In this document: in pieces, positions 2,155-14,282 of the stretch
How the letters are laid out: the number at the start of each line of letters is the position of its first letter
Numbering within the stretch: position 1 is the first letter of the stretch
Origin: an uncultured Gammaproteobacteria bacterium
Lineage (GTDB): Bacteria > Patescibacteriota > Patescibacteriia > VMEV01 > CAZAJQ01
DNA: 18,246 nt
NCBI GenBank assembly: GCA_964485795.1
Contig: CAZAJQ010000003.1
Location: 51,533-69,778, forward strand
Direction: 5' to 3'
The notes under the pieces: model-generated
Seen by the model: the letters and a program-made list of their open reading frames with translations, nothing else
Told to the model about the DNA's origin: nothing
The model's database searches: none
Position numbers and translations under genes: made by a program

Positions 2155-2184
2155 TTGACAATAGGAATTAGATTAGTTTACAAT
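2155..2184 (+). promoter_or_regulatory. Sigma70-type promoter: TTGACA (2155-2160), 18-nt spacer, TACAAT (2179-2184)
   Basis: A perfect -35 hexamer and a 5/6 -10 hexamer sit in the 101-nt ruvA-downstream gap. The -10 overlaps the track's ATG at 2183, so the real start must be ATG 2195, only ~11 nt after the -10. Confidence 0.6.
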
Positions 2185-2194
2185 GAGGTTATGT

Positions 2195-3250
2195 ATGACA
2201 AATAAGGAAAAAATTTTAAAATTTATAGAGCGCCAGGGGAAAGCCACATCGCGAGAAATCATTGAAACGATCGGAGTATCTCGCCAGTACGTCAATCTGG
2301 TTATTTCCGAACTTGTTGCAGAAGAGAAGGTTTTGAAAGTTGGGTCGACTCGATACGCTTTTTACGTTTCCAAAGCGTATGTGGCAGATCATCCTGAAGT
2401 CGTACCGAATGTTTTTAAAAAACAATACGTCAATAAATCGCTCGAGGAGCACCGCGTATTTCTCGAAATCGAGGACAAACTGCCGCAACTCAAAGCACTC
2501 CCTGAAAACGTACGGAGTATTTTCACGTTCGCTTTTTCAGAGATGTTAAATAACGCGATCGAGCATTCCGGATCGAAACTCATATCCGTAGAAGTGATCA
2601 TTCGGGATAAACTCCTTTCATTCATCGTGAACGATGCCGGTGTGGGAGTCTTCCGCAAGATTATGAAAAACAGAAATCTCAAATCGGAAATCGAAGCGAT
2701 TCAGGATTTGCTGAAAGGTAAGACAACGACCATGCCGAAATCTCATTCTGGCGAGGGGATTTTTTTTACCTCCAAAGCGGGGGATACATTCGCATTGGAT
2801 AGTTTTGGCTCTATGCTTTCCATCGATAATCTCTCGGGAGATATATCCGTGCGAGCGACTTCTGCCATCAAACGAGGTACGAGAGTTATTTTTAAGATGA
2901 GTGTGGATTCCGATCGTCACCTGAATGATGTTTTCAAAAAATACACCGACCTGAACAGTGACAGTGATTATGGCTTCGACAAGACCGAAATTCGGGTAAA
3001 ACTTTTTACATCGGGTGGTGTTCATATTTCCCGGTCCCAAGCTCGGAGGATATTGGAAGGACTCGATAAATTCAAAGTGATCATGTTTGATTACGAGAAT
3101 GTGCCGCTCGTCGGACAGGCGTTTGCGGATGAAATCTACCGCGTTTTCCAGGAACGCCATCCGGACATCCGTCTCGAAAACGAAAATATGAGCGAAGGAG
3201 TGCTATTTATGGTCGAGCGAGCCAAAAATGAAACCAGAAAGAAAAAATAA
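2195..3250 (+). CDS. wHTH + GHKL (anti-sigma-kinase-like) ATPase + STAS-like (DUF4325-type) fusion protein, 351 aa
   Basis: N-terminal winged-HTH pattern KILKFIERQGKATSREIIETIGVSRQYVNLVISELVAEEKV (about 2195-2368). GHKL N-box EMLNNAIEHSG, G1 box NDAGVGV and G2-like SGEGIFFTS lie at about 2510-2902. The C-terminal block SQARRILEGLDKFKVIMFDYENVPLVGQAFADEIYRVF (about 2984-3217) fits my memory of the STAS-like DUF4325 family. Stop is TAA 3248-3250. Confidence 0.65.
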   Translation: MTNKEKILKFIERQGKATSREIIETIGVSRQYVNLVISELVAEEKVLKVGSTRYAFYVSKAYVADHPEVVPNVFKKQYVNKSLEEHRVFLEIEDKLPQLKALPENVRSIFTFAFSEMLNNAIEHSGSKLISVEVIIRDKLLSFIVNDAGVGVFRKIMKNRNLKSEIEAIQDLLKGKTTTMPKSHSGEGIFFTSKAGDTFALDSFGSMLSIDNLSGDISVRATSAIKRGTRVIFKMSVDSDRHLNDVFKKYTDLNSDSDYGFDKTEIRVKLFTSGGVHISRSQARRILEGLDKFKVIMFDYENVPLVGQAFADEIYRVFQERHPDIRLENENMSEGVLFMVERAKNETRKKK

Positions 3251-3283
3251 CGTTCAAAAAAATTTTTGCAGGTTACTCATATC

Positions 3284-4435
3284 ATGAAATCGCATTTCCG
3301 TTATATTATTCCGATCGTTGCGGGGCTGATTCTTTTTTCGGCCGCTTTTTTTGTGAAAAAAAATCAGCTGCCGCCCATGACCATCGAAGTTTACGGCACC
3401 AGTACGGATCTCAATATGATGGCCGTCGAGGACGCCTTGTTTTCCGTCGAAGAAAAATTCGATGACAAAGTTCGCATTCGCATGCATTATCTTTCTCCGC
3501 TCGATGAAGCGGGGAATTTCACGAGTTTGCAATCCCAACGTCTCGATGGAAAAAACGTATCGGACGAGATGAAGAGTTTTGACATCATGGAAAATCAAAG
3601 ACGGTTGGTAATGCAAAAATTTTTCCCATCCCATTTTTGGCCGTATATTCGACTTCGCAACAGTACCGGCATTGAGGTGGATTGGCAGCCTCTCGCTCGA
3701 TACATAGGCCTTGATGCCGTTGGGTTTCAAAAAAAGTTTTCGGACTTTGGGATTGATATGTTGCAGATGGAATACTCGTCGTTTCAAGCTGAGCAGGCAC
3801 ATTTTGACTTTGTGCCGTCCGAGGAAGTGCTGCCGTTTGTGATCATGAATGGAAAACTGTATCGTGGGAAAACGGATCTCGCGAGCATGGCATCCGAGGT
3901 GGCAAAATATTTTTTGCGCAAAGGAAGATCCGAGCTTCCTTCCGATCATTTTTGGAAAGTGGGGAGTTTTTCCATTCCAAAGCCTTGGGAATACGCATAT
4001 CGGGGAGTTCATGAATGTTACTCCGATGATGCCTGTCAGGAGAAGCGCGGAAAAATCGGAGTCTGTGAAAATAAAAATCGTCTTTTCGCGTATTGCCGCT
4101 ATGACGAAGCGCCGGTTGTGAACATTGTGGTCATCAAAGACGATTTTGATCAAAATTCCGATCCGTATATCAAGCTTTTCAAAAAAGATTTTGAAAATAT
4201 TTCCGTGAATCATTTTTCATCCGACTCGGAAGAAGCCAAACGGTGGAAAAAAAATCCCCAGCTGGCGTTTGATCCGCTGTATATTTTCGACGCCGCAATA
4301 GAAAAGCAACCTCGGTTCCAAACCTATATGAAAAACAATCTCCTGATCCGCCTTCCCGACGGCCGTTATGCAATCGCCTCAACGCTTTTTCGGAAAGAAA
4401 CCGCTCCTTCTTCCGCTGATGCAGAAGTGAGATGA
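3284..4435 (+). CDS. N-terminally membrane-anchored, two-domain thioredoxin/DsbA-like protein with degenerate active sites (383 aa)
   Basis: ATG 3284 gives MKSHFRYIIPIVAGLILFSAAFFVKK, a signal anchor. TIEVYGTSTDLNMMAVEDAL sits where related exported thioredoxin-fold proteins carry ..EFY.MSQCPYG.QAE... LPFVIMNGKLYRG resembles the cis-Pro/..NG..y.G block. A four-Cys linker ECYSDDACQEKRGKIGVCENKNRLFAYC (4016-4096) precedes a second alpha/beta-like domain. The coding call is firm; the fold assignment is from memory and is tentative. Confidence 0.5.
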   Translation: MKSHFRYIIPIVAGLILFSAAFFVKKNQLPPMTIEVYGTSTDLNMMAVEDALFSVEEKFDDKVRIRMHYLSPLDEAGNFTSLQSQRLDGKNVSDEMKSFDIMENQRRLVMQKFFPSHFWPYIRLRNSTGIEVDWQPLARYIGLDAVGFQKKFSDFGIDMLQMEYSSFQAEQAHFDFVPSEEVLPFVIMNGKLYRGKTDLASMASEVAKYFLRKGRSELPSDHFWKVGSFSIPKPWEYAYRGVHECYSDDACQEKRGKIGVCENKNRLFAYCRYDEAPVVNIVVIKDDFDQNSDPYIKLFKKDFENISVNHFSSDSEEAKRWKKNPQLAFDPLYIFDAAIEKQPRFQTYMKNNLLIRLPDGRYAIASTLFRKETAPSSADAEVR

Positions 4436-4455
4436 ATGAAGAGCTGTGATATACT
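4427..4455 (+). promoter_or_regulatory. Candidate extended -10 promoter for the cassette: GTGAGA (4427-4432), 17 nt, TGaTATACT (4447-4455)
   Basis: TG at 4447-4448, one base, then TATACT at 4450-4455. The -35 is weak (4/6). It lies in the 125-nt gap before the first cassette gene. Pattern match only. Confidence 0.3.
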
Positions 4456-4560
4456 GAGAATCATGCTCAATGTTTCCGATGCGGTATAAAGCCCCAAACA
4501 CATCGTTTGAGTAACTTGTCGGTTATCTGCTTATTTTTTTCGATGTCCAACAAAACAAAC

Positions 4561-6324
4561 ATGAGTAAGAAGAAAATATTTCTGACGTTTGTCGCGACGG
4601 CAGGGGTTTTTTTGTTGCTTTCAAACATAAGCTTTGCCAAGCACAATAATATCGAAGGATTCGCATGGTCTAGTCTCTACGGATGGTTTTCGCATAATAA
4701 TAAAGACGTTTCATTACTTGATAAGGATTCTCATTATGGCGTGGAGCTTCTAGCAGACAATCGCTTGACGGGCTATGCGTGGAATCCCAACTTGGGGTGG
4801 ATTCAGTATGATCCCGTTGCACCCTACCCCGAGTCTCCGGATTTTTCCGCGACATTTGACCCGGCCACCCAAGATATCAACGGCTGGGCGAAGATCGTTT
4901 CTTTGGGAGACGACGGTTGGCTGAAGATGAATGATATCGGCTACGGCGTATCCATCGGTTGCAACGGGGATTTCAGCGGCTATGCATGGAACAATGCCAT
5001 AGGATGGATCGATTACAGCAAAAAGACTTTTACGTTTGGGCCAAAAAAAGAAAGCGATGGAAAACTCAAAGGCTATGCATGGACTTCCACGCATGGATTC
5101 ATTTCTCACAGCGATCAAGACACCGGCGGCGCGGCGGCGCCAAAAACGTATCAAGTGACTTTGAACGCCGGCAATAATTTTGAAGGATTCGCTTGGTCGC
5201 CTTATCTCGGATACATAGATTTCAATCCTACCGGCATTCATCCCGGCGCACCGTCAAACGGGGTTCGCTATGATTCGAGCACCAAAGAAGTTTCCGGATG
5301 GGCGAAGATTGTGGAATTCGGCGATGACGGATGGATTTCGTTTCGAGGCATATCGGGCGACGGAGATCCGTATGGAGTGACTTTGGATGACGAAGGATAT
5401 TTCAACGGCTATGCATGGAATCCGATCATCGGATGGCTGGACTATCGCAAAGGAAGGGGGGGCGTAAAGCGGGTGGGTCTTGAAACGCCGCTTTCCGCGC
5501 CGCAGCTGGAAAGTCCGGTGAATGAAGTGGATTTGGGCATGTCAAACCCTTCCACCTATTTTACGCCAACTCTTGATTTCACTTCGTTTCCGGTGATAGG
5601 TCCTGCTTGCGCCGGATCGGAAAAAGCGTATCAGGTTCAGGTTTCGCGGCTCAACGATTTTCCCGACCCGGGTTCTCCGGGGCAAGCGGTGCCAGACCCA
5701 CTCGATCCGCGCTGGTCAAGCATCATGGTCAATGACACGATTTACACGACCTCTTCATCGGCCTATACGATTTTGGCCGGTGTTTTTGATCTTTCGGATC
5801 CAAACGGCCTTGCGCCCGGAACGGATTATAATCAAACGTTTTATTGGCGCGTGAGGTATCAAAATTCCAGCGATGAGCTGACGGATTGGGGGACGATAGC
5901 GCGTATTTTTGCACCGGTGGTAACGCCAAACGCTTTTAAGATGCCCAAGCATGCGCCTCCTCTCGCGGATTTTACCTACGATCCTTTGGAGCCTCCGGCA
6001 TTCACAGAAACGAAATTCACGGATACTTCCATAAGCTATGGAGGCAGTACTTTGGTATACTGGAAATGGGATTTTGGCGATTCACATATCATTGAATGCG
6101 CGGATGCCGGCGGTATCACATGTACCTGCGAGAAAGCCGGAACTGCCGTCACTTGCCCGGCGTTTGAAAATCAGCATCCCGTCCATGTGTATACCGATGA
6201 CGGGCTCATGACGGTTTCGCTTTTGATCCGCGATTCCGACGGATACGAAGGCACCAAGGTATTGCCCGCTCCGCTCAACGTCACCTTACCTTTGCCGAAG
6301 TTTGAGCTTGGTGCGCCGAGATGA
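4561..6324 (+). CDS. Secreted multi-domain surface protein (587 aa): signal peptide, eight G-[YFW]-A-W repeats, Fn3-like domain, PKD domain
   Basis: ATG 4561 gives a textbook Sec signal peptide, MSKKKIFLTFVATAGVFLLLSNISFA|KHNN. ATG 4543 is a possible alternative; the track's TTG at 4507 is unlikely. The repeat region is 4651-5451. A Fn3-like block at about 5479-5916 runs from AYQVQVSRLNDF to FYWRVRYQNSSDELTDWG. The PKD block at 5962-6276 contains WKWDFGDS ... HVYTDDGLMTVSLLIRDSDG. Stop is TGA 6322-6324. Confidence 0.8.
   Translation: MSKKKIFLTFVATAGVFLLLSNISFAKHNNIEGFAWSSLYGWFSHNNKDVSLLDKDSHYGVELLADNRLTGYAWNPNLGWIQYDPVAPYPESPDFSATFDPATQDINGWAKIVSLGDDGWLKMNDIGYGVSIGCNGDFSGYAWNNAIGWIDYSKKTFTFGPKKESDGKLKGYAWTSTHGFISHSDQDTGGAAAPKTYQVTLNAGNNFEGFAWSPYLGYIDFNPTGIHPGAPSNGVRYDSSTKEVSGWAKIVEFGDDGWISFRGISGDGDPYGVTLDDEGYFNGYAWNPIIGWLDYRKGRGGVKRVGLETPLSAPQLESPVNEVDLGMSNPSTYFTPTLDFTSFPVIGPACAGSEKAYQVQVSRLNDFPDPGSPGQAVPDPLDPRWSSIMVNDTIYTTSSSAYTILAGVFDLSDPNGLAPGTDYNQTFYWRVRYQNSSDELTDWGTIARIFAPVVTPNAFKMPKHAPPLADFTYDPLEPPAFTETKFTDTSISYGGSTLVYWKWDFGDSHIIECADAGGITCTCEKAGTAVTCPAFENQHPVHVYTDDGLMTVSLLIRDSDGYEGTKVLPAPLNVTLPLPKFELGAPR
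4651..5451 (+). repeat. Protein-level tandem repeats: eight ~31-38-aa units built on G-[YFW]-A-W-x(3-4)-G-[WFY]-[ILF], arranged as two ~135-aa super-repeats
   Basis: Repeat cores are GFAWSSLYGWFSH (4657-4695), GYAWNPNLGWIQY (4771-4809), GWAKIVSLGDDGWLKM (4882-4929) and GYAWNNAIGWIDY (4978-5016). These are followed by GYAWTSTHGFISH (5071-5109), GFAWSPYLGYIDF (5185-5223), GWAKIVEFGDDGWISF (5296-5343) and GYAWNPIIGWLDY (5407-5445). Units 1-4 and 5-8 match one-to-one in order and subtype. Confidence 0.85.
5962..6276 (+). other. PKD-type Ig-like domain with a ~30-aa four-Cys insertion
   Basis: FTDTSISYGGSTLVYWKWDFGDS, then IIECADAGGITCTCEKAGTAVTCPAFENQ, then HPVHVYTDDGLMTVSLLIRDSDG. This is the canonical WDFGD ... 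HxY..G.Y.V.L.v.D pattern with an unusually long cysteine-bearing loop between the two halves. Confidence 0.7.
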
Positions 6325-6378
6325 GCGGAGACAACCCATCAGAGGGTGTTTCGCATCATTCTTTCACATTTATTCATT

Positions 6379-7104
6379 ATGAGGAGTAATTTTCAAAATT
6401 TTATTTTCATTTTTACCCTCGGGTTGATTTTCGGGTTGGCCGTTTTTTCATCCGGAGCTGAGCTTTTGGCGGCTTGGACTTCGCCGGGGCTCGGGTGCTC
6501 GGTGGGACAATGCTTGCCGACCGGCAAGGTGGATGCCGGAACCGCGTCGCAAACCGGAAACGATCGTTTGACGATCAACGGGAAATTGGAAATCGGCGGA
6601 GAAGCGTACGGGCAAAGCGATGTGGCGATCGTGGACGGCGACCTCGTGCTGTCCGATGATGGCGACGATCCCGGTGATGTCGTTTTCTACGATGAAGCGC
6701 GCAATCTTCTCGGGAAAATATACGCGTTTTCAAACGGGCTGCATCTGCAATCCTCGTCTGCACGTCCGGCGGATCTTTTCATCGCAAATGACGGCGGAAA
6801 TGTGGGCATCGGCACACAAACCCCGGAAAGCAATCTTCACGTCGTCGGAAATTTTCAACTCATCGACGGCCATCAAGCGCAAAACGCATTGATGGTTTCC
6901 GATGGCGTCGGCAATGCGCAATGGAAATCGTCTGCAACGGCGTATCAATGTCCAGCAATCGCCTCCACCGGAGGATGTGGGGCTTCCAATTGCGATGGCA
7001 ATCTTCATTTCGAAACGTCGACATGTCAATATCAGGTCTGGGTGTTCGGGTGCACACCGGTCACGGCCAATTGTTCGGCCGCAGGGTATTATTCGGCGCA
7101 ATAA
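6379..7104 (+). CDS. Exported fibre-like paralog P1 (241 aa), W-x-S-P-x-C family
   Basis: ATG 6379 gives MRSNFQNFIFIFTLGLIFGLAVFSSGAELLA|AWTSPGLGCSVGQC. The central stalk motif is GGNVGIGTQTPESNLHVVG (6796-6849), followed by LMVSDGVGNAQW. The C-terminal ~55 aa carry 7 Cys. Stop is TAA 7102-7104. The track's GTG at 6346 would add an odd hydrophobic extension and is rejected. Confidence 0.8.
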   Translation: MRSNFQNFIFIFTLGLIFGLAVFSSGAELLAAWTSPGLGCSVGQCLPTGKVDAGTASQTGNDRLTINGKLEIGGEAYGQSDVAIVDGDLVLSDDGDDPGDVVFYDEARNLLGKIYAFSNGLHLQSSSARPADLFIANDGGNVGIGTQTPESNLHVVGNFQLIDGHQAQNALMVSDGVGNAQWKSSATAYQCPAIASTGGCGASNCDGNLHFETSTCQYQVWVFGCTPVTANCSAAGYYSAQ

Positions 7105-7175
7105 AGGATTTTTTATTGTAATGGCATGGCGAGAAATTTTTTACGAGCTCTCAAAAATCGATTGAACCCTCGATT

Positions 7176-7919
7176 ATGAATATCACAAAAATCACCTCCG
7201 GAGCTATTTTCGCGGTTCTGGTATCGGCCACAGTTTTTGCGGTCCAAACCCATGTGTTTGCCCAATGGATCGAGCCGACATGCAGCGGTCCTTCGTGCGG
7301 CAAGGAAATATTGCGTTCCGATCTTGCGGAGCAGGAGAAAAGGGGCGATTTTCATCTGCTGGGCAATCTCGGAATTAAGACTGAAAATCCTGGCGATGCT
7401 TTTGAAATATTCGGAGGAGGCAATGTCAGCTTGGAAAGCATGAGCATTCCCGGAGCTTTGAAATTTTACAATTCCGTTTCCGATGAATTCGGAAAAATCG
7501 CAGTCACGGACAACGGTTTGTTTTTGGCCGCGGATACGCAAAGATCGGCGGATATTTTTTTGCAAAAAAACGGCTCGGTGGGCATCGGCTCAAATAAACC
7601 TCAAAGCACATTGCATGTGGCCGGATCCATGAAGGTGGTGGACGGAACGCAAGGAGCCAATAAAGTGTTTGTCTCCGACGCGGCCGGGAAGGGAGGGTGG
7701 AAAAATCTCCGTGCCGTCTACTATTGCGGTTATTATTCCGGCGGTCTTTGCGGCGGAGGTACGCAATGCAGCGGTCAATACGCGCTATGGCCCATTTCTT
7801 GCGCGTATCAGGAGTGCGCGGGAGCCGGAGGAGGAGATAAAAAGGGTCCGAGCTTTGGAACACCGGGAAACTGGCTGAACTATGATTGTCCGCAAATAGG
7901 AAATATTGTCGAGCCGTAG
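7176..7919 (+). CDS. Exported fibre-like paralog P2 (247 aa), W-x-E-P-x-C family
   Basis: N-terminus is MNITKITSGAIFAVLVSATVFAVQTHVFA|QWIEPTCSGPSCG. First stalk motif LGNLGIKTENPGDAFEIFG (7359-7415); central motif NGSVGIGSNKPQSTLHVAG (7569-7625); then VFVSDAAGKGGW. The C-terminal ~65 aa carry 7 Cys. Stop is TAG 7917-7919. Confidence 0.8.
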   Translation: MNITKITSGAIFAVLVSATVFAVQTHVFAQWIEPTCSGPSCGKEILRSDLAEQEKRGDFHLLGNLGIKTENPGDAFEIFGGGNVSLESMSIPGALKFYNSVSDEFGKIAVTDNGLFLAADTQRSADIFLQKNGSVGIGSNKPQSTLHVAGSMKVVDGTQGANKVFVSDAAGKGGWKNLRAVYYCGYYSGGLCGGGTQCSGQYALWPISCAYQECAGAGGGDKKGPSFGTPGNWLNYDCPQIGNIVEP

Positions 7920-7921
7920 CT

Positions 7922-8518
7922 ATGGACAGAAAAACGTTGCTCATGATGTTTGGTCTTGAAACGTCTTTGTTCGTCGCCTTTTTCAGCTATATCTGGATAT
8001 TCGCGCCCAAAAGCGGGGATATCACGAGTTTGACCCTCTATCAAAAGGGTTATGAAGATGGAAATTTGGCGGGAACGAAAATCTCGGGAGATGAAAACAG
8101 AAATTCAAATTTTCGCGCTGTCGGGACGGTTGTAAGCGCAGAAAATGGTGAAATGATTTTTGACATCGCACGGCAACCATCGAGCATTCAGGATTTCTCC
8201 GGCGAGCATGCACTTGTTTTGGATGCGAATGTGAAATTTTTTGATATTCTAGTAAAGACGCAAGCGCAGTATGAAAAAGAGACGCAGGCATACTATCAAG
8301 CAATGATTTTTGATAAAAAATTCAGGACGGCTCCGAACGCATTTGATATACTTTCGAGGGATTTGCTACCTGTTGTCGGAGATACCGTTTTGATCGTGTT
8401 TCGCAAAGAAGGCGGGGAAAATCGTATGCTGGAGGGGACGACTATCCCGCAAGCGTATGTTTCAAACGGAGATTTTTTGCAGCAAAGTTTTCAGATCATG
8501 AAAGAGAGTGATCGTTGA
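7922..8518 (+). CDS. N-terminally TM-anchored companion protein C1 (198 aa)
   Basis: ATG 7922 lies 2 nt after the P2 stop. MDRKTLLMMFGLETSLFVAFFSYIWIF is a single TM segment. The beta-rich ectodomain contains NRNSNFRAVGTVVSAENGEMIF ... VGDTVLIVF and aligns by eye with C2. The track start at 7886 overlaps P2 and is rejected. Confidence 0.7.
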   Translation: MDRKTLLMMFGLETSLFVAFFSYIWIFAPKSGDITSLTLYQKGYEDGNLAGTKISGDENRNSNFRAVGTVVSAENGEMIFDIARQPSSIQDFSGEHALVLDANVKFFDILVKTQAQYEKETQAYYQAMIFDKKFRTAPNAFDILSRDLLPVVGDTVLIVFRKEGGENRMLEGTTIPQAYVSNGDFLQQSFQIMKESDR

Positions 8519-8536
8519 TGATGGCCTTCGCCATCA
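8519..8536 (+). other. Perfect 7-bp stem / 4-nt loop hairpin directly after the C1 stop codon
   Basis: TGATGGC (8519-8525), loop CTTC, GCCATCA (8530-8536); all seven pairs are Watson-Crick. No U-tract follows (AAACGTTCC), so it is not a canonical intrinsic terminator. It sits at the boundary between the two three-gene modules. Confidence 0.45.
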
Positions 8537-8567
8537 AACGTTCCGCGTATCGGTTTATCGTAAACCA

Positions 8568-9233
8568 ATGAAAAAAATACTTTTTGATTTTGGAAAATAT
8601 ATCGGCATGTTCGCATTGGGAATCGGCATGGCCGGTATGGTGACTTTGTCGCAAAACGCTTTGGCCGATTGGCGATCGCCGTCTTGCAATCCGCCGGACT
8701 GCGGCGTGGATGCATCAAAGCTCATATCCGTGGAAGGCGGTGGAAACATCGTTGGTGATTTGAAAATACTTGGAAAACTCGGAGTCAAAACCAGTTCCCC
8801 GAAAGCGCGTCTTGATATCTCGCTCGGTGGAGATCTGATTCTGTCCGACGAAGCGCAAAATCCGGGAGACTTGCTTTTTGTCCAAGGAGGGCGTGAGCTG
8901 GCTCGCATTTACGGGGCGTCGGAGAGGATGGTTTTTTCCGCGTATGAAAATCCAAATCAGCTGGTGATTGATCATGCCACGGGAAGAGTCGGAGTGGGAG
9001 TGGCGGTTCCGCAGAGCACGTTGCACATTGCCGGAAGTCTGCGCATCAATAACGGCAGCGAGGGCGCCGGAAAGGTATTGGCCTCGGATGGAGAGGGAAA
9101 TGTTTTTTGGCGATCGACGGACATGCGCGTTTTGTTTTGCCCGACGTATAATCCTCCGTCGATCGTTTTCAGCTCGCTTGGGCTGATTTACTATACCGAA
9201 TGTTCTGAGCGTGGCCATTTGATTTCGCTTTAA
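8568..9233 (+). CDS. Exported fibre-like paralog P3 (221 aa), W-x-S-P-x-C family
   Basis: ATG 8568 gives MKKILFDFGKYIGMFALGIGMAGMVTLSQNALA|DWRSPSCNPPDCG. First stalk motif ILGKLGVKTSSPKARLDISLGG (8766-8831); GDLILSDEAQNPGDLLF aligns with P1 GDLVLSDDGDDPGDVVF; central motif TGRVGVGVAVPQSTLHIAG (8979-9035); then VLASDGEGNVFW. The tail is short, with 2 Cys. Stop is TAA 9231-9233. Confidence 0.8.
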   Translation: MKKILFDFGKYIGMFALGIGMAGMVTLSQNALADWRSPSCNPPDCGVDASKLISVEGGGNIVGDLKILGKLGVKTSSPKARLDISLGGDLILSDEAQNPGDLLFVQGGRELARIYGASERMVFSAYENPNQLVIDHATGRVGVGVAVPQSTLHIAGSLRINNGSEGAGKVLASDGEGNVFWRSTDMRVLFCPTYNPPSIVFSSLGLIYYTECSERGHLISL

Positions 9234-9292
9234 CGATTCGCTGCGGTATACTTGATAAAGAATTTTTTCAATCTCATTTTTCAAATTTGCGT

Positions 9293-10231
9293 ATGCATGT
9301 TTTTCAAAAAGTTTTTTTCGCATTATGGGGAGCGGTTATCAGCGTGGGCATTTTTTTTGTATCGCAAAATCTCATGGCGGCATGGAGTGAACCCGCATGC
9401 GATCCGGGACCAAACCCGGGCGCATGCAACGCTTCAGAGCCCATCAATGTAGGCACCGAAACGCAAAGCAAGGCTGGAAGTTTGGGTGTCATGGGAAATC
9501 TCGGCGTAGGCACCGGTACTCCGTCAGCCAAACTTTTCATCAGCGGAGACACGACCGCGGATTGGAAAAACGCTTCCATATGGATTCAAAATTCCGCGGC
9601 CGGTGGACGGATTTTCGCTATTGCCAGCAGACTGGACAATCCCGGCCAGCCCTATTTGGGCTTTACCGATGAAACCGCCGGGCAGGTGAGGATGTATCTG
9701 GATCAAAACGGCAACGTAGGCATCGGAGGTTATCCGACGAATAAGCTTTCGATCGAAGGAAGTCTTGATATGGCCGCGGGAACGACGATTTACAATCGGG
9801 GTCGCATGCATGTTTTCGGCGAAGAAATACTCTACCTTCTCAATCGAAGCGGAACCGTCGTGAGCAAAGCATGGGGAGGCAATGGAAATCTTTCGGTGGA
9901 AGGCGAAGAGTATGTGAGCGGAAAGTTTAATTTCAATCCTCATACGAATACGTGGGGGTCAAATTTTTATTTCCGCGGTTGGGCCGAGCCGGACAACTGC
10001 TGGCATGTGGGCGGTTATTATGAGGCTCCCTTTCAGTGTATCGGAAATTATATTGACCTCGGACAGCATAGTTTTTGCGCATTGGGGACGGTTTTCAGCG
10101 AACATCTGTACGATCAAGGCGGCGGATCCGCGATTTGCAATGTTTACTTTGACGGGCCCGCCAATACATGGCGTCTCTATGCCACCGAAGGATATGGAGG
10201 CGGAGTCGGTTGCGGGGTGAATTGTTTTTGA
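9293..10231 (+). CDS. Exported fibre-like paralog P4 (312 aa), W-x-E-P-x-C family, with an enlarged C-terminal domain
   Basis: ATG 9293 gives MHVFQKVFFALWGAVISVGIFFVSQNLMA|AWSEPACDPGPNPGAC. PINVGTETQSKAGSLGV follows, then first stalk motif MGNLGVGTGTPSAKLFISG (9491-9547) and central motif NGNVGIGGYPTNKLSIEG (9707-9763). A ~155-aa Gly/aromatic/Cys-rich domain replaces the SD..GN..W head. Stop is TGA 10229-10231. Confidence 0.8.
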   Translation: MHVFQKVFFALWGAVISVGIFFVSQNLMAAWSEPACDPGPNPGACNASEPINVGTETQSKAGSLGVMGNLGVGTGTPSAKLFISGDTTADWKNASIWIQNSAAGGRIFAIASRLDNPGQPYLGFTDETAGQVRMYLDQNGNVGIGGYPTNKLSIEGSLDMAAGTTIYNRGRMHVFGEEILYLLNRSGTVVSKAWGGNGNLSVEGEEYVSGKFNFNPHTNTWGSNFYFRGWAEPDNCWHVGGYYEAPFQCIGNYIDLGQHSFCALGTVFSEHLYDQGGGSAICNVYFDGPANTWRLYATEGYGGGVGCGVNCF

Positions 10232-10236
10232 AACCT

Positions 10237-10743
10237 ATGCCCAAATATTTCGAGCGATTTTTTTCTCATCTTGGAAATTTTTTTATCGGGATGGTGTTTG
10301 TTGTGCTGATATTTGTTTCGGGTATGGTCGTCAACCTTGTTTTGATCAATCCAAAACCCCAGCCGTATTCTTTTGAGATTCGAACCAATAGCGAGATCGT
10401 GAGCACCGCCGGGACGGTGCAGTCGGTGGGGGACAACTTTTTTATCCTTGGTTTCGAACCTCAGCTGCTTTTATCTCAACGTTTTCAGGAGAAAAAACTT
10501 CCGCAGAGTTTGAAGGTGTATTGGGATGAAAACACGGATTTTTTGGAAAATTTCTTATCGACTCAAATATCGATACCAAATCAAAATAACGGATCCGTTC
10601 TGGTGTCATCCCCGCAAAAATTGAGTCACAATGATTTGAAAGCGGGAATTCGTGTGATCGTGAATTTCGGAGAAAATATTTCTGAACAAACCGAAGCAAA
10701 AGCCAAGTCCATTTTTTTTGTAAATACCGGTTCAAAGCCTTGA
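10237..10743 (+). CDS. N-terminally TM-anchored companion protein C2 (168 aa)
   Basis: ATG 10237 lies 5 nt after the P4 stop. MPKYFERFFSHLGNFFIGMVFVVLIFVSGMVVNLVLI is the TM anchor. IRTNSEIVSTAGTVQSVGDNFFI ... AGIRVIVNF aligns by eye with C1. Stop is TGA 10741-10743. The track start at 10168 overlaps P4 and is rejected. Confidence 0.7.
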   Translation: MPKYFERFFSHLGNFFIGMVFVVLIFVSGMVVNLVLINPKPQPYSFEIRTNSEIVSTAGTVQSVGDNFFILGFEPQLLLSQRFQEKKLPQSLKVYWDENTDFLENFLSTQISIPNQNNGSVLVSSPQKLSHNDLKAGIRVIVNFGENISEQTEAKAKSIFFVNTGSKP

Positions 10744-10789: not shown

Positions 10790-10818
10790 TTGACACCCTT
10801 TGTCAACGGTGGTATTAT
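10790..10818 (+). promoter_or_regulatory. Strong sigma70-type promoter for rpoBC: TTGACA (10790-10795), 17 nt, TGgTATTAT (10810-10818)
   Basis: A perfect -35, the optimal 17-nt spacer, an extended -10 TG at 10810-10811 and a 5/6 -10 hexamer at 10813-10818. It predicts a ~100-nt leader. A Shine-Dalgarno AAGGGAG at 10915-10921 lies 7 nt before ATG 10929. Confidence 0.65.
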
Positions 10819-10928
10819 GTGGAAAAATCCATGTCCGATTAATATTGGGCTAAGATGAGCCAAAATATCACATAAGTTGGTCCGTCATTAAATACTCGCT
10901 TCCAAAACAGTAAGAAGGGAGAATTTTT

Positions 10929-13900
10929 ATGTTTAAAAAAATTGAACGTAAATACTTTACTGCCCCTCGTGAAGTAGCCCCTTTGCCGGATCTCATCGAA
11001 ATACAGAAAAATTCCTTCCACTGGTTTCTCAAGGAAGGATTGAAAGAACTCTTTGAAGAAATATCTCCGATTACTGATTTTATCGGTCGCGATCTCGAGC
11101 TTTTTTTGGCGGATTATTACCTCGATGAAGCGAAGTTTGACGAAGTGACAAGCAAAAACAAGAATATCACCTATGAAGCGCCTTTGCGCGTGAAGGCCAA
11201 GCTCGTGAACAAACGCACGCATGAGGTGAAGGAGCAGGAAGTGTATTTGGGCGATTTCCCGCTGATGACGGATCGGGGAACGTTCATTGTCAACGGCATT
11301 GAACGCGTGGTGGTCTCGCAGCTCATTCGTTCACCAGGAATATTTTTCACCTCCGATCCAAGTCACGGTCGCAAGTATTACGGCGCCAAGGTGATACCAA
11401 ACCGCGGTGCATGGATCGAGATCGAAACCGATCAAAACGATGAAATTTACGCCAAGATCGATCGCAAACGCAAGGTACCCATTACCGCGCTTTTGCGTGC
11501 GTTCGGATATAGCGCGGACGATGAGATTCGAAGTTTGTTTGCCGATCTTTTTGATACGGAAAACGCTTTGAATTACATCGAAAACACTTTGAAAAAAGAC
11601 GCTTCCAAGAACGAAGAAGATGGCTTGAAGGAAGTGTATAAACGAGTTCGTCCCGGGGATTTGGCCACCACCGACAATGCCCGTTCTCTCATACACGGCA
11701 TGTTTTTCAATTTCAGTCGGTACGATTTCGGACGCGTGGGAAGGTACAAGATCAACGAACGATTCGAAGAAGATTTGCCGATTACAAAAGAAAACCGCGT
11801 TTTGCGCAAAGAAGATTTGATTCATGTGGTGCGCGAAATTATTCGTTTGAATAAAACCCAAGAAGACGCCGATGATATTGATCATCTCGGCAATCGTCGC
11901 GTGCGTGCCATCGGAGAGCTGGTGCAAAACAAATTTCGCATCGGTCTTGCTCGCATGGAGCGCATCGTGAAAGAGCGCATGAGCACCTATGATATTGAGA
12001 CATTGACGCCCAATAAGCTCATCAATGCCCGTCCGATCATCGGAGTCGTGAAGGAATTTTTCATGTCTTCGCAGCTTTCGCAATTCATGGATCAGACCAA
12101 TCCTTTGTCCGAGCTGGAGCATAAGAGACGACTTTCGGCCATGGGGCCGGGAGGATTGTCGCGCGAAAGAGCGGGTTTTGATGTTCGCGACGTGCATACT
12201 TCGCATTACGGACGCATTTGTCCCATTGCCACGCCCGAAGGTCCGAATATCGGACTGGTAGGGCATTTGGCGAGCTATGCGCGGGTCAATGATTATGGGT
12301 TTTTGGAGACGCCGTTTCGAAGAGTGAAGCATGATCCCCGCAATACACCCTCCGAGATTGTCGGCGAAATAGCCCGCGAAGATATTGATCGCGTCGTCAA
12401 AGCCGGCGAGATGATTACCGAAAAAATCGCTCAGAAATTGGCGAAATTGCATAGGGAGACCATTCCCGTGAAAGCGCGCGTCACCGATGAGGTCGCGTAT
12501 CTTACGGCCACGGTTGAAGAGCGCTCGGTCACCACTCCGGCTACAACGGCTCTGGATGAAAAAGGTTACTTTTTGTCTGAAAAGGTGGAAGGTCGCGTGC
12601 ACGGAAAGCCGGGTAAAATCGCTTCCCATCAAGTGGATCTCATGGACGTTTCATCCAAGCAAATTCTTTCGATCGCAACTTCTTTGATACCTTTTGTCGA
12701 GCATGACGATGCGAACCGCGCATTGATGGGCACGAATATGCAACGTCAGGCGGTTCCCTGCGTGGCGCCGAAAGCTCCTCTCGTGGGTACGGGGGTGGAA
12801 GCATTGGCGGCGCAAAATTCCGGACAATTGCTCATGTCCGCCTATGACGGTGAAATCACGGAAGCTGACGCCGCGCATATCGTGATTCGAAAGAAAGACA
12901 ATCATCTGGATACGTTCAAGCTCAAGAAATTTTTGCGATCAAACCATTCCACCTGCATCAATCAGCATGTTTTGGTGACCAAGGGCGACAAGGTGAAAAA
13001 AGGTGATATTTTGGCCGATGGTTCGGCAACCGAGCGTGGAGATTTGGCCTTGGGGCAAAATCTTTTGGGCGCTTTTCTTTCATGGGAGGGGGGGAATTTT
13101 GAAGACGCCATATTGATATCCGAAAGAGTGGTGTATAATGATTATTTTTCATCGGTGCATATTGAAGATTATACCATCGACGTGCGCGATACGAAGCTTG
13201 GCCCGGAGCTGATCACGAGTGATATTCCCAATATCAGCGAAGAACGTCTCAAGGATCTCGACGAAGAAGGTATCATACGTATCGGCGCCAAGGTTTCGTC
13301 CGGTGACATTCTCGTGGGAAAGATCACTCCAAAAGGTGAAACCGAGCTTTCTCCGGAAGAAAAGTTGCTTCGCGTGATTTTCGGAGAAAAGGCAAAAGAC
13401 GTGAGGGATTCATCGCTGTACCTCGAACATGGCGAGCATGGCAAGGTCGTGGACGTGAAAATCTTTTCGCGCGATGCAGGAGACAAACTTCCGACCGGCG
13501 TGATCAAGAGCGTACAGGTTTCCATCGCTCAGCTGCGCAAGATTCAGGTGGGCGACAAAATGGCCGGAAGGCATGGAAATAAAGGTGTGGTGTCGCGCGT
13601 TGTGGCTCTCGAGGATATGCCGTTCATGGAAGACGGACGTCCGCTCGACATTATTTTGAGCCCCTTGGGTGTGATTTCCCGTATGAATCTCGGGCAGATT
13701 TTTGAAATTCATCTGGGTATGGCCGCGCATCATCTCGATTATCACGCCGCCACACCGGTACTCAACGGCATCAGCGAGCAAACCATCAAAGACGAATTGG
13801 TGAAAGCCGGGTTTGGCACTTCCGGACAAATGAAGCTCATCGACGGCAGGTCGGGAGAGCATTTTGACAATCCTTCCACGGTGGGATTCGTGTACATGCT

Positions 13901-14282
13901 CAAGCTCAATCATCTTGTGGAAGACAAGATTCACCAGCGTTCCATCGGACCGTATTCACTCATCACCCAGCAACCCTTGGGAGGCAAGGCGCAATTCGGC
14001 GGACAGAGATTCGGAGAAATGGAAGTATGGGCGCTGGAAGCCTATGGCGCGGCGCATATTTTGCAGGAAATCTTGACCATCAAGTCCGATGATGTCATGG
14101 GACGCTCCAAGGCGTATGAGTCCATCATCAAGGGTGAATCCATTCAAAAGGTGAATATTCCGGAGTCATTCAATGTGCTTATTCGAGAGCTGAAAGGATT
14201 ATGTCTTGATGTGGAGATTTTCAACGAAAACAATGAAAAGGTCGAAGAAAGAAACGTGGATGCGACTTCACTTGTTTCCTGA
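10929..14282 (+). CDS. rpoB: DNA-directed RNA polymerase beta subunit (1117 aa)
   Basis: Full-length ORF with hallmark blocks: [49 protein letters not shown] (the rifampicin-cluster region), [15 protein letters not shown] and [24 protein letters not shown]. There is a good SD. Stop is TGA 14280-14282. Confidence 0.97.
   Translation: [1117 protein letters not shown]

What the first reader, a model, noticed from the sequence alone, without database searches (positions are those of the whole stretch)
4561..10743. Seven-gene cassette of exported proteins (candidate surface-fibre/adhesion apparatus) between housekeeping genes, directly upstream of rpoBC
Every ORF from 4561 to 10743 begins with a Sec-type signal peptide or a single N-terminal TM anchor, and none shows an enzymatic or nucleotide-binding motif. 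All are co-directional, with short spacers of 54, 71, 2, 49, 59 and 5 nt, which is consistent with one operon. The contents are one large repeat/PKD protein, four paralogous fibre-like proteins and two membrane-anchored companions. The flanks are core genes (ileS-ruvA on one side, rpoB-rpoC on the other). The place where most bacteria carry rplKAJL ahead of rpoB is occupied by this cassette instead. I cannot assign the paralog family or the companions to any characterised system. A plausible model is a membrane-anchored base (C1/C2), trimeric fibre subunits (P1-P4) and a distal or accessory adhesin (the repeat/PKD protein). Such an apparatus could serve attachment to a host cell or substrate.
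Basis: partly seen in the sequence, partly recalled or inferred. Interest (0 to 1): 0.8.

Follow-up and report, generated by a model that had tools for sequence, protein, structure and literature searches.

The report
Surface-fibre gene cluster of a CPR bacterium
Seven neighbouring genes in an ultra-small (Patescibacteria/CPR) bacterium encode exported proteins, including four short tail-fibre-like fibres, and the same three protein families sit together in many other CPR genomes, often beside type IV pilus genes, so this is probably an undescribed cell-surface attachment kit.

Summary
Window 4561-10743 carries seven co-directional ORFs with the stated spacers. Each has one N-terminal hydrophobic segment and none has an enzymatic domain.

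P1-P4 are paralogues. Their central repeat is homologous to the beta-helix stalk of Bdellovibrio MAT trimeric fibres (PDB 8ond, E 6.7e-22). Positional orthologues in a relative carry collagen Gly-X-Y stalks instead.

G1 has a signal peptide, a duplicated Trp-rich beta-hairpin domain, an Ig-like domain and a PKD domain. C1 and C2 are remote paralogues, each a membrane anchor plus a beta-rich domain, with no known family.

The cassette order recurs at the same ruvA-rpoB position in relatives (L088; variants L089, L204, L205). Of 80 metagenomic loci with a G1 relative, 29 carry a P or C gene within 2.5 kb, always on the same strand. Twenty-four carry type IV pilus genes within 6 kb.

Best reading: this is a lineage-expanded copy of a CPR-wide, undescribed module of trimeric surface fibres with swappable tips, a membrane-tethered partner and a repeat/PKD protein, probably used for attachment. 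Function and assembly are inferred, not shown. The rplKAJL remark is uninformative, because relatives have a Mur ligase upstream of rpoB.

The parts
4427..4455 (+). Promoter-like site ahead of G1; candidate cassette promoter.
   Evidence: It matches 9 of 12 consensus positions and has a TG extension. The number of such sites in the region is no higher than in shuffled sequence, so this is weak evidence.
4561..6324 (+). G1. A signal peptide is followed by a duplicated ~140-aa Trp-rich beta-hairpin repeat domain (G[YF]AWxxxxG[WFY]I motifs), an Ig/FN3-like domain and a C-terminal PKD domain.
   Evidence: The AF2 model has mean pLDDT 79.9. Foldseek matches the C-terminus to ColG PKD domains (TM 0.82-0.84); the top hit is an archaeal S-layer YVTN+PKD protein. 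Pfam gives only sub-threshold DUF7038 and PKD_4 hits. Full-length homologues at 31-39% identity occur in Parcubacteria.
6379..7104 (+). P1. A short fibre protein: N-terminal hydrophobic helix, W-x-x-P plus a Cys loop, a MAT-like stalk unit (GNVGIGTQTPESNLHVVG) and a Cys-rich tip (8 Cys).
   Evidence: Alignment A1. The A1 profile hits PDB 8ond at E 3.7e-14. PHROGs tail-fibre phrog_9942 scores E 7e-6.
7176..7919 (+). P2. A paralogous short fibre protein with a different Cys-rich tip.
   Evidence: 33% identity to P1, E 2e-23.
7922..8518 (+). C1. A bitopic membrane protein (N-terminal TM segment plus a ~150-aa beta-rich domain with a helical insert). Its start lies 2 nt after the P2 stop.
   Evidence: It has no homologue other than itself among 5.8 billion clustered proteins. 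Positional counterparts exist in L088 and L089, and family members lie next to G1-family genes. There are no Pfam or PDB matches.
8568..9233 (+). P3. A paralogous short fibre protein with a minimal tip (4 Cys).
9293..10231 (+). P4. The longest fibre paralogue. It carries the conserved neck motif GRMHVFGEEILYLLNRSGTVVSKAWGGNGNLSVEG and a ~100-aa Cys-rich tip.
   Evidence: The neck is shared with P0004 and with database proteins that end in Peptidase_S74 or H-type lectin tips. The A8 profile hits 8ond at E 6.7e-22. The monomer AF2 model is poor (pLDDT 55.8).
10237..10743 (+). C2. A second bitopic membrane protein and remote paralogue of C1. Its start lies 5 nt after the P4 stop.
   Evidence: It has no homologue other than itself among 1.84 billion representative proteins. 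hhalign of the C1-type profile against the C2-type profile gives probability 83.5%, E 8e-6.
10790..10818 (+). Strong promoter-like site (TTGACA-17-TATTAT with a TG extension) between C2 and rpoB. It marks the downstream boundary of the cassette.
   Evidence: It matches 11 of 12 consensus positions.
3266..4435 (+). Orphan 389-aa protein with an N-terminal TM segment, directly upstream of the cassette. Whether it belongs to the cassette is doubtful.
   Evidence: It has one hydrophobic N-terminal segment and 4 Cys. It has no counterpart in L088 or in any G1-family locus.

Best explanation
The cassette is a lineage-specific, expanded copy of a three-family cell-surface module that is widespread in Patescibacteria (CPR).

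The likely mechanism has these steps:
1. All seven products are exported or inserted through the Sec pathway. This is inferred from the single N-terminal hydrophobic segment in each, and from the even Cys counts (4 or 8) in the P proteins.
2. P1-P4 assemble into short trimeric fibres. Homology of the stalk to trimeric fibres is shown; trimerisation itself is inferred. The stalk unit is homologous to the intertwined beta-helix of Bdellovibrio MAT fibres and S74-type phage tail fibres. In sister lineages the stalk unit is replaced by a collagen triple helix.
3. The fibres share a conserved N-terminal module placed directly after the hydrophobic helix. Across CPR it reads A|WTEP(S/T)xxPPxGNVxxP(I/L)N...QxKxGxL; in this window it reads W-x-(E/S)-P-x-C...C. 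This module holds them at the cell surface. Either the helix is kept as a membrane anchor, or the mature N-terminus docks onto the co-encoded partners, as a phage tail fibre docks onto a baseplate. This step is inferred.
4. The C proteins are tethered to the membrane and encoded 2-5 nt after a P gene here. G1 is a Trp-rich repeat domain followed by Ig-like and PKD domains. Together they are the candidate anchoring or assembly platform, or co-adhesins. This step is inferred from gene coupling.
5. The variable C-terminal tips bind ligands on a host cell or substrate. In this window the tips are small Cys-rich domains. In relatives they include Peptidase_S74, collagen/Lcl_C, EPTP and Fib_succ_major domains. 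Four paralogues would give a repertoire of specificities. This step is inferred.

In many other CPR the G1-family gene sits inside or next to type IV pilus operons, so the module may cooperate with pili in host contact.
For: - Gene anatomy, hydrophobic segments and spacers.
- No enzymatic families.
- P paralogy.
- MAT homology. The A1 profile hits 8ond (Bd2133) at E 3.7e-14 plus four other MAT chains. The A8 profile hits 8ond at 6.7e-22, 8oml at 3.7e-14 and 8ojn at 7.9e-11, over a ~130-residue unit. MAT proteins are experimentally trimeric, surface-displayed adhesive fibres (PMC10769870).
- PHROGs tail-fibre hits for all four P proteins.
- Database relatives of P carry Peptidase_S74, H-type lectin, Collar and C1q tips.
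- Syntenic cassette in L088: ileS-ruvA-G1-P-P-C-P-C-rpoB, where two P proteins carry Pfam Collagen repeats.
- Variant cassettes occur in L089, L204 and L205 at the same ruvA-G1 position (rpoB is seen downstream in L089 and L204), and in L206 elsewhere. Their collagen-like proteins begin with APTQAPPNGNP.
- Of 80 metagenomic G1-family loci, 29 have P or C within 2.5 kb. All 34 P and 16 C hits are on G1's strand. Density near versus far is 0.118 versus 0.018 per kb for P and 0.061 versus 0.0035 per kb for C. C lies mostly 7-104 nt from G1.
- Conserved WTEP...PPxGN N-terminus: 25 of 35 P-family members near G1 carry the W-x-x-P core, and most of the rest carry an FxxP variant of the same module.
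- Tip diversity among the P neighbours of G1.
- G1 model with a PKD end.
- Type IV pilus neighbours in 24 of 80 loci, confirmed by Pfam T2SSE, T2SSF, Peptidase_A24 and N_methyl.
Against: - There is no experimental or expression data, and surface location is inferred from sequence only.
- P1-P4 are 221-312 aa, against about 1,000 aa for MAT proteins. They contain only one or two stalk units.
- Trimerisation could not be modelled. The monomer AF2 model was poor.
- The fold and role of the C family are unknown.
- The cassette is absent upstream of rpoB in all 12 nearest GTDB species representatives, so it is confined to a narrow lineage at this position.
- Only 10 of 80 loci show all three families together. 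Many of those contigs are short.
- This window contains no pilus genes, and its G1 belongs to a separate subcluster from the pilus-linked ones.
- None of the cassette genes has an obvious Shine-Dalgarno sequence, whereas rpoB does. Expression level is therefore uncertain.
Confidence: 0.6

Rival explanations
1. Type IV pilus accessory module. G1 would be the CPR counterpart of a PilY1-type, non-pilin, tip-associated adhesin, and the P and C proteins would work with the pilus rather than forming independent fibres. This is partly a refinement of the main explanation rather than an exclusive rival.
For: - G1-family genes lie directly upstream of four overlapping pilin-like genes (GFTLxE motif) in at least 10 loci.
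- They lie downstream of PilC-pilin-pilin-PilD in two loci.
- They lie 3-5 kb upstream of HK-RR-PilB-PilC in eight or more loci.
- L163 combines pilins, two or more P genes, G1 and minor pilins in one cluster.
- Pilus-linked and P/C-linked G1 proteins fall in the same sequence cluster.
Against: - The window has no pilin-motif ORF on either strand, and no T2SSE or T2SSF gene.
- None of the seven proteins has a class III (prepilin) signal sequence.
- The window's G1 clade is a separate subcluster, found only in the ruvA-rpoB context or alone.
- In arrangement (a), a housekeeping gene (rny) separates G1 from the pilus genes, so some of the linkage may be inherited synteny.
Confidence: 0.2
2. The proteins are structural cell-envelope components, such as S-layer-associated or cell-wall-spanning scaffold proteins. 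They would have no role in binding other cells.
For: - The best Foldseek hit of G1 is an archaeal S-layer protein fragment with a PKD domain (1l0q).
- The module sits among housekeeping genes in several lineages: ruvA-rpoB here, and ClpP-...-Rny elsewhere.
- The window sequence is 100% identical in four other runs, so there is no microdiversity.
Against: - Composition and tips vary strongly between close relatives. One P is lost in L088, stalks are collagen or beta-helix, and tips include S74, EPTP and Lcl_C. This is typical of receptor-binding proteins, not of core envelope parts.
- C1 and C2 are sequence orphans.
- The cassette is missing in the nearest species representatives.
Confidence: 0.12
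3. The P proteins are secreted Cys-rich toxins or bacteriocins, each followed by a membrane immunity protein (C).
For: - P-C pairs are tightly coupled, with gaps of 2 and 5 nt here and 3-9 nt in L088, L111 and L134.
- The P tips are small, disulfide-rich and variable.
- The C proteins are small, fast-evolving membrane proteins.
Against: - Most of each P protein is a conserved fibre stalk with a conserved N-terminal module, homologous to adhesive fibres.
- No toxin domain was found.
- C has a single TM segment with a ~130-150-aa extracytoplasmic domain. It also pairs with G1 where no P gene is nearby.
Confidence: 0.05
4. The cassette is a remnant of a prophage or tailocin receptor-binding module.
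For: - PHROGs tail-fibre hits for P1-P4.
- The stalk is shared with S74-type phage fibres (PMC10769870).
Against: - The 18-kb window has no capsid, tail, baseplate, integrase or lysis gene.
- The G1 repeat domain is not found in IMG/VR viral contigs; only its PKD part matches. No relative carrying the P N-terminal module was found there either, in a scan with one pattern.
- The locus is syntenic between housekeeping genes in several relatives.
Confidence: 0.03

Closest known systems
Mosaic adhesive trimer (MAT) fibres of Bdellovibrio bacteriovorus (Bd2133, Bd3182 and others; Caulton et al. 2024, PMC10769870)
   Same: - Exported proteins whose stalk repeat (…GNVGIGxxxPxxxLxVxG…) aligns significantly with P1-P4 (8ond E 6.7e-22).
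- An invariant N-terminal part with swappable C-terminal tips, present as several paralogues per genome.
- Used by a bacterium that must attach to other bacteria.
- The anchoring partner is unknown in that system too, and the authors suggested interplay with type IV pili.
   Different: - MAT proteins are about 1,000 aa, with a ~130-aa N-terminal beta-rich domain and long stalks. P1-P4 are 221-312 aa, with a ~30-45-aa N-terminal module and one or two stalk units.
- P1-P4 have no S74 domain.
- The CPR proteins are encoded together with two further conserved families (C and G1). The sections of the MAT paper that I read do not mention such partner families.
Phage tail fibres and tailspikes with a Peptidase_S74 intramolecular chaperone (K1F endosialidase, T5 pb1)
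   Same: - The same stalk superfamily. Some P-family members next to G1 genes end in S74.
- The same modular logic: a conserved N-terminal attachment part and a variable receptor-binding tip.
   Different: - No phage context here.
- The N-terminal adaptor and the partner families were not found in viral contigs.
- The proteins carry Sec-type N-termini, which virion proteins lack.
Bacterial collagen-like surface filaments (Bacillus BclA, streptococcal Scl, Legionella Lcl)
   Same: Positional orthologues in L088, L089 and L204-L206 are small exported proteins with Gly-X-Y repeats and a globular C-terminal end. One P neighbour of a G1 gene has an Lcl_C domain.
   Different: - P1-P4 of this window have no Gly-X-Y run.
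- The N-terminal module and the gene partners are different.
PilY1 with the minor-pilin tip complex of type IV pili
   Same: In many CPR loci the G1-family gene, which encodes a large non-pilin beta-rich exported protein, is encoded with four minor-pilin-like genes. This parallels pilY1 in the fimU-pilVWXY1E operon (established knowledge; PMC5979040 abstract).
   Different: - There is no detected sequence or fold relation to PilY1.
- The window's cassette has no pilin genes.
PKD-domain surface proteins (for example the archaeal S-layer protein fragment 1l0q and the ColG PKD domains)
   Same: The C-terminal domain of G1 has the PKD fold (TM 0.82-0.84).
   Different: The N-terminal duplicated Trp-rich hairpin domain produced no convincing whole-chain PDB or BFVD match (the top hits have low TM scores and the good local matches are PKD domains). 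Its only Pfam hit is a sub-threshold DUF7038 match.

Membership tests
MAT (mosaic adhesive trimer) superfamily | Trimeric beta-helix stalk with the capping-loop repeat motif | tested here: met
   Profile matches to five MAT crystal-structure chains: 8ond 6.7e-22, 8oml 3.7e-14, 8ojn 7.9e-11, 8on4 8e-9 and 8ol4 2e-6. This is sequence homology only. The oligomeric state was not tested.
MAT (mosaic adhesive trimer) superfamily | Conserved beta-rich domain of about 130 aa immediately after the signal peptide (PMC10769870) | tested here: not met
   Only about 30-45 residues separate the hydrophobic helix from the first stalk unit in P1-P4. These residues form a different conserved module (W-x-x-P..., or WTEPxxxPPxGN in relatives). 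No MAT N-domain sequence was available for a direct comparison.
MAT (mosaic adhesive trimer) superfamily | C-terminal Peptidase_S74 chaperone, or an alternative adhesive tip domain | tested here: inconclusive
   P1-P4 have no S74 domain; they end in small Cys-rich segments of unknown fold. Relatives of the family do end in S74, H-type lectin, Collar or C1q domains.
MAT (mosaic adhesive trimer) superfamily | N-terminal signal peptide and surface display | tested here: inconclusive
   Each protein has one N-terminal hydrophobic segment. Neither cleavage nor surface location can be tested here.
Phage tail fibre (virion component) | Encoded among phage structural genes (baseplate, tail, capsid) | tested here: not met
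   The window has no phage structural, integrase or lysis genes. The partner families were not found in IMG/VR viral contigs.
Bacterial collagen-like proteins | Runs of Gly-X-Y triplets | tested here: not met
   P1-P4 have none (sequences; no Collagen hit among the Pfam results). Gly-X-Y runs are present in the positional orthologues L088 Pa and Pb and in small proteins of L089 and L204-L206.
Type IV pilins / pilus tip proteins | Class III signal sequence (G|FTLxE) or adjacency to pilin and PilB/PilC genes | tested here: not met
   The window has no prepilin motif in any frame and no T2SSE or T2SSF gene. The adjacency is seen only for G1-family genes in other loci.
PKD-domain proteins | PKD beta-sandwich fold | tested here: met
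   The G1 C-terminus matches ColG PKD domains at TM 0.82-0.84 in Foldseek, and the local pLDDT is mostly above 90. The Pfam PKD_4 hit is sub-threshold (21.7 bits against a cut-off of 27).
Pfam DUF7038 | Score above the gathering threshold | tested here: not met
   The score is 25.7 bits against a cut-off of 27, and it covers only one hairpin (residues 191-220). No literature mentions this family.

The most novel reading that the evidence does not exclude
The G1, C and P families together would form a previously undescribed, CPR-specific host-recognition apparatus. Short trimeric fibres with interchangeable tips would dock, through a conserved N-terminal peptide (WTEPxxxPPxGN or its Cys-loop variant), onto a membrane-tethered C protein and a Trp-repeat/PKD protein. 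The apparatus would act together with type IV pili to select and hold the host cell. Functionally it would be an episymbiont's equivalent of a phage receptor-binding apparatus, and it could explain host specificity in Parcubacteria.
Probability: 0.3. Interest if true: 0.8.

Novelty: new variant of a known kind. Interest (0 to 1): 0.6.

Why it matters
How CPR/Patescibacteria recognise and hold on to their hosts is a central open question. So far it has been tied experimentally mainly to type IV pili in Saccharibacteria (PMC9894109, PMC12206443, PMC11665869).

A conserved, modular fibre system with swappable tips, encoded next to pilus genes in many Parcubacteria, would be a concrete candidate for host-specificity determinants. 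It gives testable targets: tip-ligand binding, trimer formation, and P-C-G1 contacts.

It also extends the MAT/tail-fibre stalk to a third lifestyle after phages and predatory bacteria. It points to candidate anchoring partners, which are still unknown for Bdellovibrio MAT fibres.

Tried and rejected
- Pfam, NCBIfam and PHROGs scans of all seven proteins. Nothing passed a cut-off except weak PHROGs tail-fibre hits for the P proteins.
- Homology searches for C1 (5.8 billion clustered proteins) and C2 (1.84 billion representatives). Each found only itself.
- Profile searches of the 19-member C family against Pfam and PDB. These gave only insignificant KOW/SH3-like hints. The idea that C is PilN/PilO-like was dropped, because there were no Pfam hits and no PilM neighbour.
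- AF2 of the P4 monomer was poor (pLDDT 55.8), so I did not run a fold search on it.
- Fold searches of the G1 model identified only generic FN3/PKD matches. Nothing matched the repeat domain as a whole.
It gave the taxonomy, but no cassette in the 12 nearest species representatives.
- The 134-kb NCBI contig that holds the window could not be retrieved, and the cluster look-up gave no names.
- I tested whether C replaces the S74 chaperone. The idea is weakened, because L155 has C next to an S74-bearing P.
- DNA repeats in the cassette only mirror the conserved coding motifs.
- There are no Rfam families or tRNAs in the window.
- There is no sequence variation among four other runs that carry the locus.
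- Literature searches for DUF7038, the AWTEP motif, and CPR tail-fibre or collagen surface proteins found nothing relevant.

Full report
**1. The observation**

The window carries, on the + strand, the end of ileS (16-1512) and ruvA (1509-2093). These are followed by an HTH/HATPase/DUF4325 protein (2183-3250) and an orphan membrane-anchored 389-aa protein (3266-4435). Then come the seven ORFs of the finding, and then rpoB (10929-14282) and rpoC (14324-18217).

The seven gene models are G1 4561-6324, P1 6379-7104, P2 7176-7919, C1 7922-8518, P3 8568-9233, P4 9293-10231 and C2 10237-10743. Their spacers are 54, 71, 2, 49, 59 and 5 nt. Independent gene calls on identical Logan contigs agree with these models.

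Each product has one N-terminal hydrophobic segment; P3's is weaker. The P proteins have 8, 8, 4 and 8 cysteines, and the C proteins have none. No Pfam or NCBIfam family passes its cut-off. G1 has only sub-threshold DUF7038 and PKD hits.

A 9/12 promoter-like site lies at 4427-4455. An 11/12 site (TTGACA-17-TATTAT) lies at 10790-10818, ahead of rpoB. Terminator-like sites are no more frequent than in shuffled sequence. This fits one transcription unit that is separate from rpoBC, but these are consensus matches only.

**2. The organism and the genomic position**

The rpoB N-terminus is 64-73% identical to Patescibacteria MAGs, including a Candidatus Buchananbacteria MAG. None of the 12 nearest GTDB species representatives has a relative of any cassette protein upstream of rpoB.

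In the close relatives L005-L010 a Mur-ligase-like gene precedes rpoB; L011 and L012 have neither a Mur ligase nor rplJL there. ruvA lies 1.9-4.5 kb upstream in L006 and L007. In one Parcubacteria contig, secE-nusG-rplK-rplA is not followed by rpoB.

**3. The P proteins**

P1-P4 are paralogues (22-32% identity to P1 in the multiple alignment and 27-33% in the pairwise BLASTP alignments; BLASTP E down to 2e-23). They share the following parts:
- a hydrophobic helix;
- the motif W-x-(E/S)-P-x-C...C;
- a G-x-L-x-(V/I)-x-G-x-L-G segment;
- a unit G-(N/S/R)-V-G-(I/V)-G-x-x-x-P-x-x-x-L-x-(V/I)-x-G.

Their C-terminal ends differ.

A profile of the four proteins hits Bdellovibrio MAT fibre crystal structures (8ond E 3.7e-14, 8ojn 1.8e-8, and three more). 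A broader profile gives 8ond 6.7e-22 over a ~130-residue unit. MAT proteins are experimentally trimeric and surface-displayed. They have intertwined beta-helix stalks related to S74-type phage fibres, an invariant N-terminal part and swappable adhesive tips (PMC10769870).

PHROGs gives tail-fibre hits for all four P proteins. Database relatives of P are 300-540-aa proteins that end in Peptidase_S74, H-type lectin, Collar, C1q or other domains. P4's neck motif (GRMHVFGEE.LYLLNRSG..VSKAWGGNGNL) recurs in front of such tips. The AF2 monomer model of P4 was poor, as expected for a chain that folds only as a trimer.

**4. G1**

G1 has full-length homologues (31-39% identity) in Parcubacteria. The AF2 model (pLDDT 79.9) shows four parts:
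- an N-terminal signal segment;
- two ~140-residue repeats, each built from G[YF]AWxxxxG[WFY]I and GWAKI..LGDDGWI beta-hairpins;
- a middle Ig/FN3-like domain;
- a C-terminal PKD domain (TM 0.82-0.84 to ColG PKD domains).

The repeat domain has no convincing structural match.

**5. C1 and C2**

Each C protein finds only itself in very large protein collections. Positional counterparts exist in related cassettes. Profiles of the C1-type and C2-type proteins match each other (hhalign probability 83.5%, E 8e-6).

After iteration, the family comprises bitopic proteins with a common pattern: a TM segment, a linker, G-x-V-x-S(I/V)...L...V-x-V-x-x-x-T-x-(I/F), an optional helical insert...L-x-x-G-D-x-(I/V)-x-V...A-x-x-I. 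The family has no Pfam or PDB relative.

**6. Conservation**

Following G1 homologues to their contigs gave the following loci.
- L088 (rpoB 76% identical): ileS-ruvA-G1-P-P-C-P-C-rpoB. This is the window's order minus one P. Two of its P proteins have a collagen Gly-X-Y stalk (Pfam Collagen E 1e-5 to 1e-7) in place of the MAT-like unit.
- L089, L204 and L205: ileS-pepA-ruvA followed by C-like genes, small collagen-like genes on the opposite strand and G1. In L089 and L204 this is followed by C, P and a Cys-rich protein and then rpoB; the L205 contig ends at G1.
- L206: the same set in another genomic context.

The collagen-like proteins begin with a signal segment plus APTQAPPNGNP(A/S)FP. This is the same module as the canonical P N-terminus.

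A metagenome scan with a G1 alignment returned 80 loci. Local HMMs for the P and C families gave these results:
- A P or C gene lies within 2.5 kb of G1 in 29 loci (25 with P, 14 with C, 10 with both).
- All 34 P hits and all 16 C hits are on G1's strand.
- Density near versus far from G1 is 0.118 versus 0.018 per kb for P.
- Density near versus far from G1 is 0.061 versus 0.0035 per kb for C.
- C is usually 7-104 nt from G1.
- Gene orders seen include P-C-G, C-P-G, G-C-P(-P-P), C-G and G-C.

Twenty-five of 35 P-family members near G1 carry the W-x-x-P core of the motif (Y/F)A-W-T-E-P-(S/T)-x-x-P-P-x-G-N-V-x-x-P-(I/L)-N...Q-x-K-x-G-x-L directly after the hydrophobic helix, and most of the others carry an FxxP variant followed by the same PPxGN segment. 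Their tips vary: 3 S74, 2 collagen, and single cases of EPTP, Fib_succ_major, Lcl_C and DUF6242. Most tips are unknown.

In IMG/VR viral contigs, the G1 scan matched only the PKD part and not the repeat domain, and the single-pattern scan with the P N-terminal module returned no relative.

**7. An unexpected link to type IV pili**

Clustering all neighbours of G1-family genes showed type IV pilus genes within 6 kb in 24 of 80 loci. There are three arrangements:
- (a) [ClpP]-P-(C)-G-Rny-HK-RR-PilB-PilC.
- (b) G followed, 54-66 nt downstream or overlapping, by four mutually overlapping pilin-like genes with GFTLxE motifs.
- (c) PilB...PilC-pilin-pilin-PilD-G.

Pfam confirms T2SSE, T2SSF, Peptidase_A24 and N_methyl in these neighbours. 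L163 unites pilins, P genes, G1 and minor pilins in one cluster.

Pilus-linked and P/C-linked G1 proteins are intermixed in one sequence cluster. The window's clade forms a separate cluster, and the window itself has no pilin-motif ORF. The pilus link is therefore shown for the family and only inferred for this cassette.

**8. Interpretation**

Shown:
- the gene anatomy;
- paralogy of the P proteins;
- stalk homology to proven trimeric adhesive fibres;
- substitution of the stalk by collagen in orthologues;
- the PKD end of G1;
- recurrent same-strand clustering of the three families;
- proximity of the G1 family to pilus genes.

Inferred:
- Sec-dependent export;
- trimerisation of P1-P4;
- anchoring through the retained helix, or docking of the conserved N-terminal module onto C and/or G1;
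- ligand binding by the variable tips;
- a role in attachment to a host cell.

The tight P-C coupling (2 and 5 nt here) suggests a 1:1 partner, either an anchor or an assembly factor. A simple "C replaces the S74 chaperone" idea is weakened by L155, where C sits next to an S74-bearing P.

Rivals are a pilus-accessory role (partly a refinement), purely structural envelope proteins, toxin-immunity pairs, and a phage remnant. The last two fit the data poorly.

**9. Comparison and novelty**

The stalks place the P proteins in the MAT/tail-fibre superfamily. They fail two MAT features: the ~130-aa N-terminal domain and the ~1,000-aa size. They also have their own N-terminal module and two dedicated partner families.

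I found no paper that describes the G1/C/P module, the WTEP...PPxGN motif or DUF7038. The library does not cover subscription journals, so absence is not proven.

I rate the finding as a new variant of a known kind (trimeric fibre adhesins), with moderate to high interest. It gives concrete candidates for host recognition in uncultivated Parcubacteria. All functional statements remain computational.

Noticed in passing
L092, L107, L109, L116, L121 (235-4593), L123 (9920-12818), L130, L151, L161, L163; L158, L162; L093, L103, L150, L164: G1-family genes are often embedded in or next to type IV pilus operons. In some loci they lie directly upstream of four overlapping minor-pilin-like genes. In others they lie after PilC-pilin-pilin-PilD, or 3-5 kb upstream of HK-RR-PilB-PilC. 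This suggests that a PilY1-like accessory protein family exists in CPR.
   Followed up: partly
window 2183-3250 (+): A 355-aa protein combines a winged-helix HTH, a histidine-kinase-like ATPase domain and a STAS-like DUF4325 domain, between ruvA and the exported-protein genes. It has no counterpart in related loci. It could be a local regulator.
   Followed up: no
window 3266-4435 (+): An orphan 389-aa protein with one N-terminal TM segment and 4 Cys lies directly upstream of the cassette. It has no family hit and no homologue in any fetched locus, so membership in the cassette is uncertain.
   Followed up: partly
window 4536-4560, 6354-6378, 7151-7175, 8543-8567, 9268-9292 versus 10904-10928: None of the cassette genes G1, P1, P2, P3 or P4 has a recognisable Shine-Dalgarno sequence in the 25 nt before its start. 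rpoB has AAGGGAG in the same position. The cause and the consequence for expression are unexplained.
   Followed up: no
L088 9485-10807; L089 9315-9935(-), 12157-13464(-); L204 6797-7222(-), 9394-9771(-); L205 7737-9249(-); L206 9354-9743(-): Small exported collagen-like proteins (Gly-X-Y runs) share the APTQAPPNGNP N-terminal module of the P family. Several are encoded on the strand opposite to G1.
   Followed up: partly
L005 7775-9097, L006 8361-9680, L007 8198-9526, L008 6290-7726, L009 911-2425, L010 8407-9849: In the nearest Patescibacteria relatives a Mur-ligase-like gene, not rplJL, lies immediately upstream of rpoB. The window lineage has lost this adjacency.
   Followed up: partly
L089 14893-15768, L204 12613-13455, L206 11595-12350: A conserved Cys-rich exported protein of 250-290 aa follows the C-P pair and precedes rpoB in the sister clade. 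It has no Pfam hit and is absent from the window.
   Followed up: no
L006 3046-4629: In a relative, a 527-aa exported protein with FN3-like and FG-GAP-like repeats (judged from its sequence by eye; no family scan was run) lies just upstream of ruvA. It is another surface protein in the same variable neighbourhood.
   Followed up: no
PDB 8pdz: The P-family profile gives a weak hit (E 0.0025) to a DUF3992 domain-containing protein chain. I did not pursue it.
   Followed up: no
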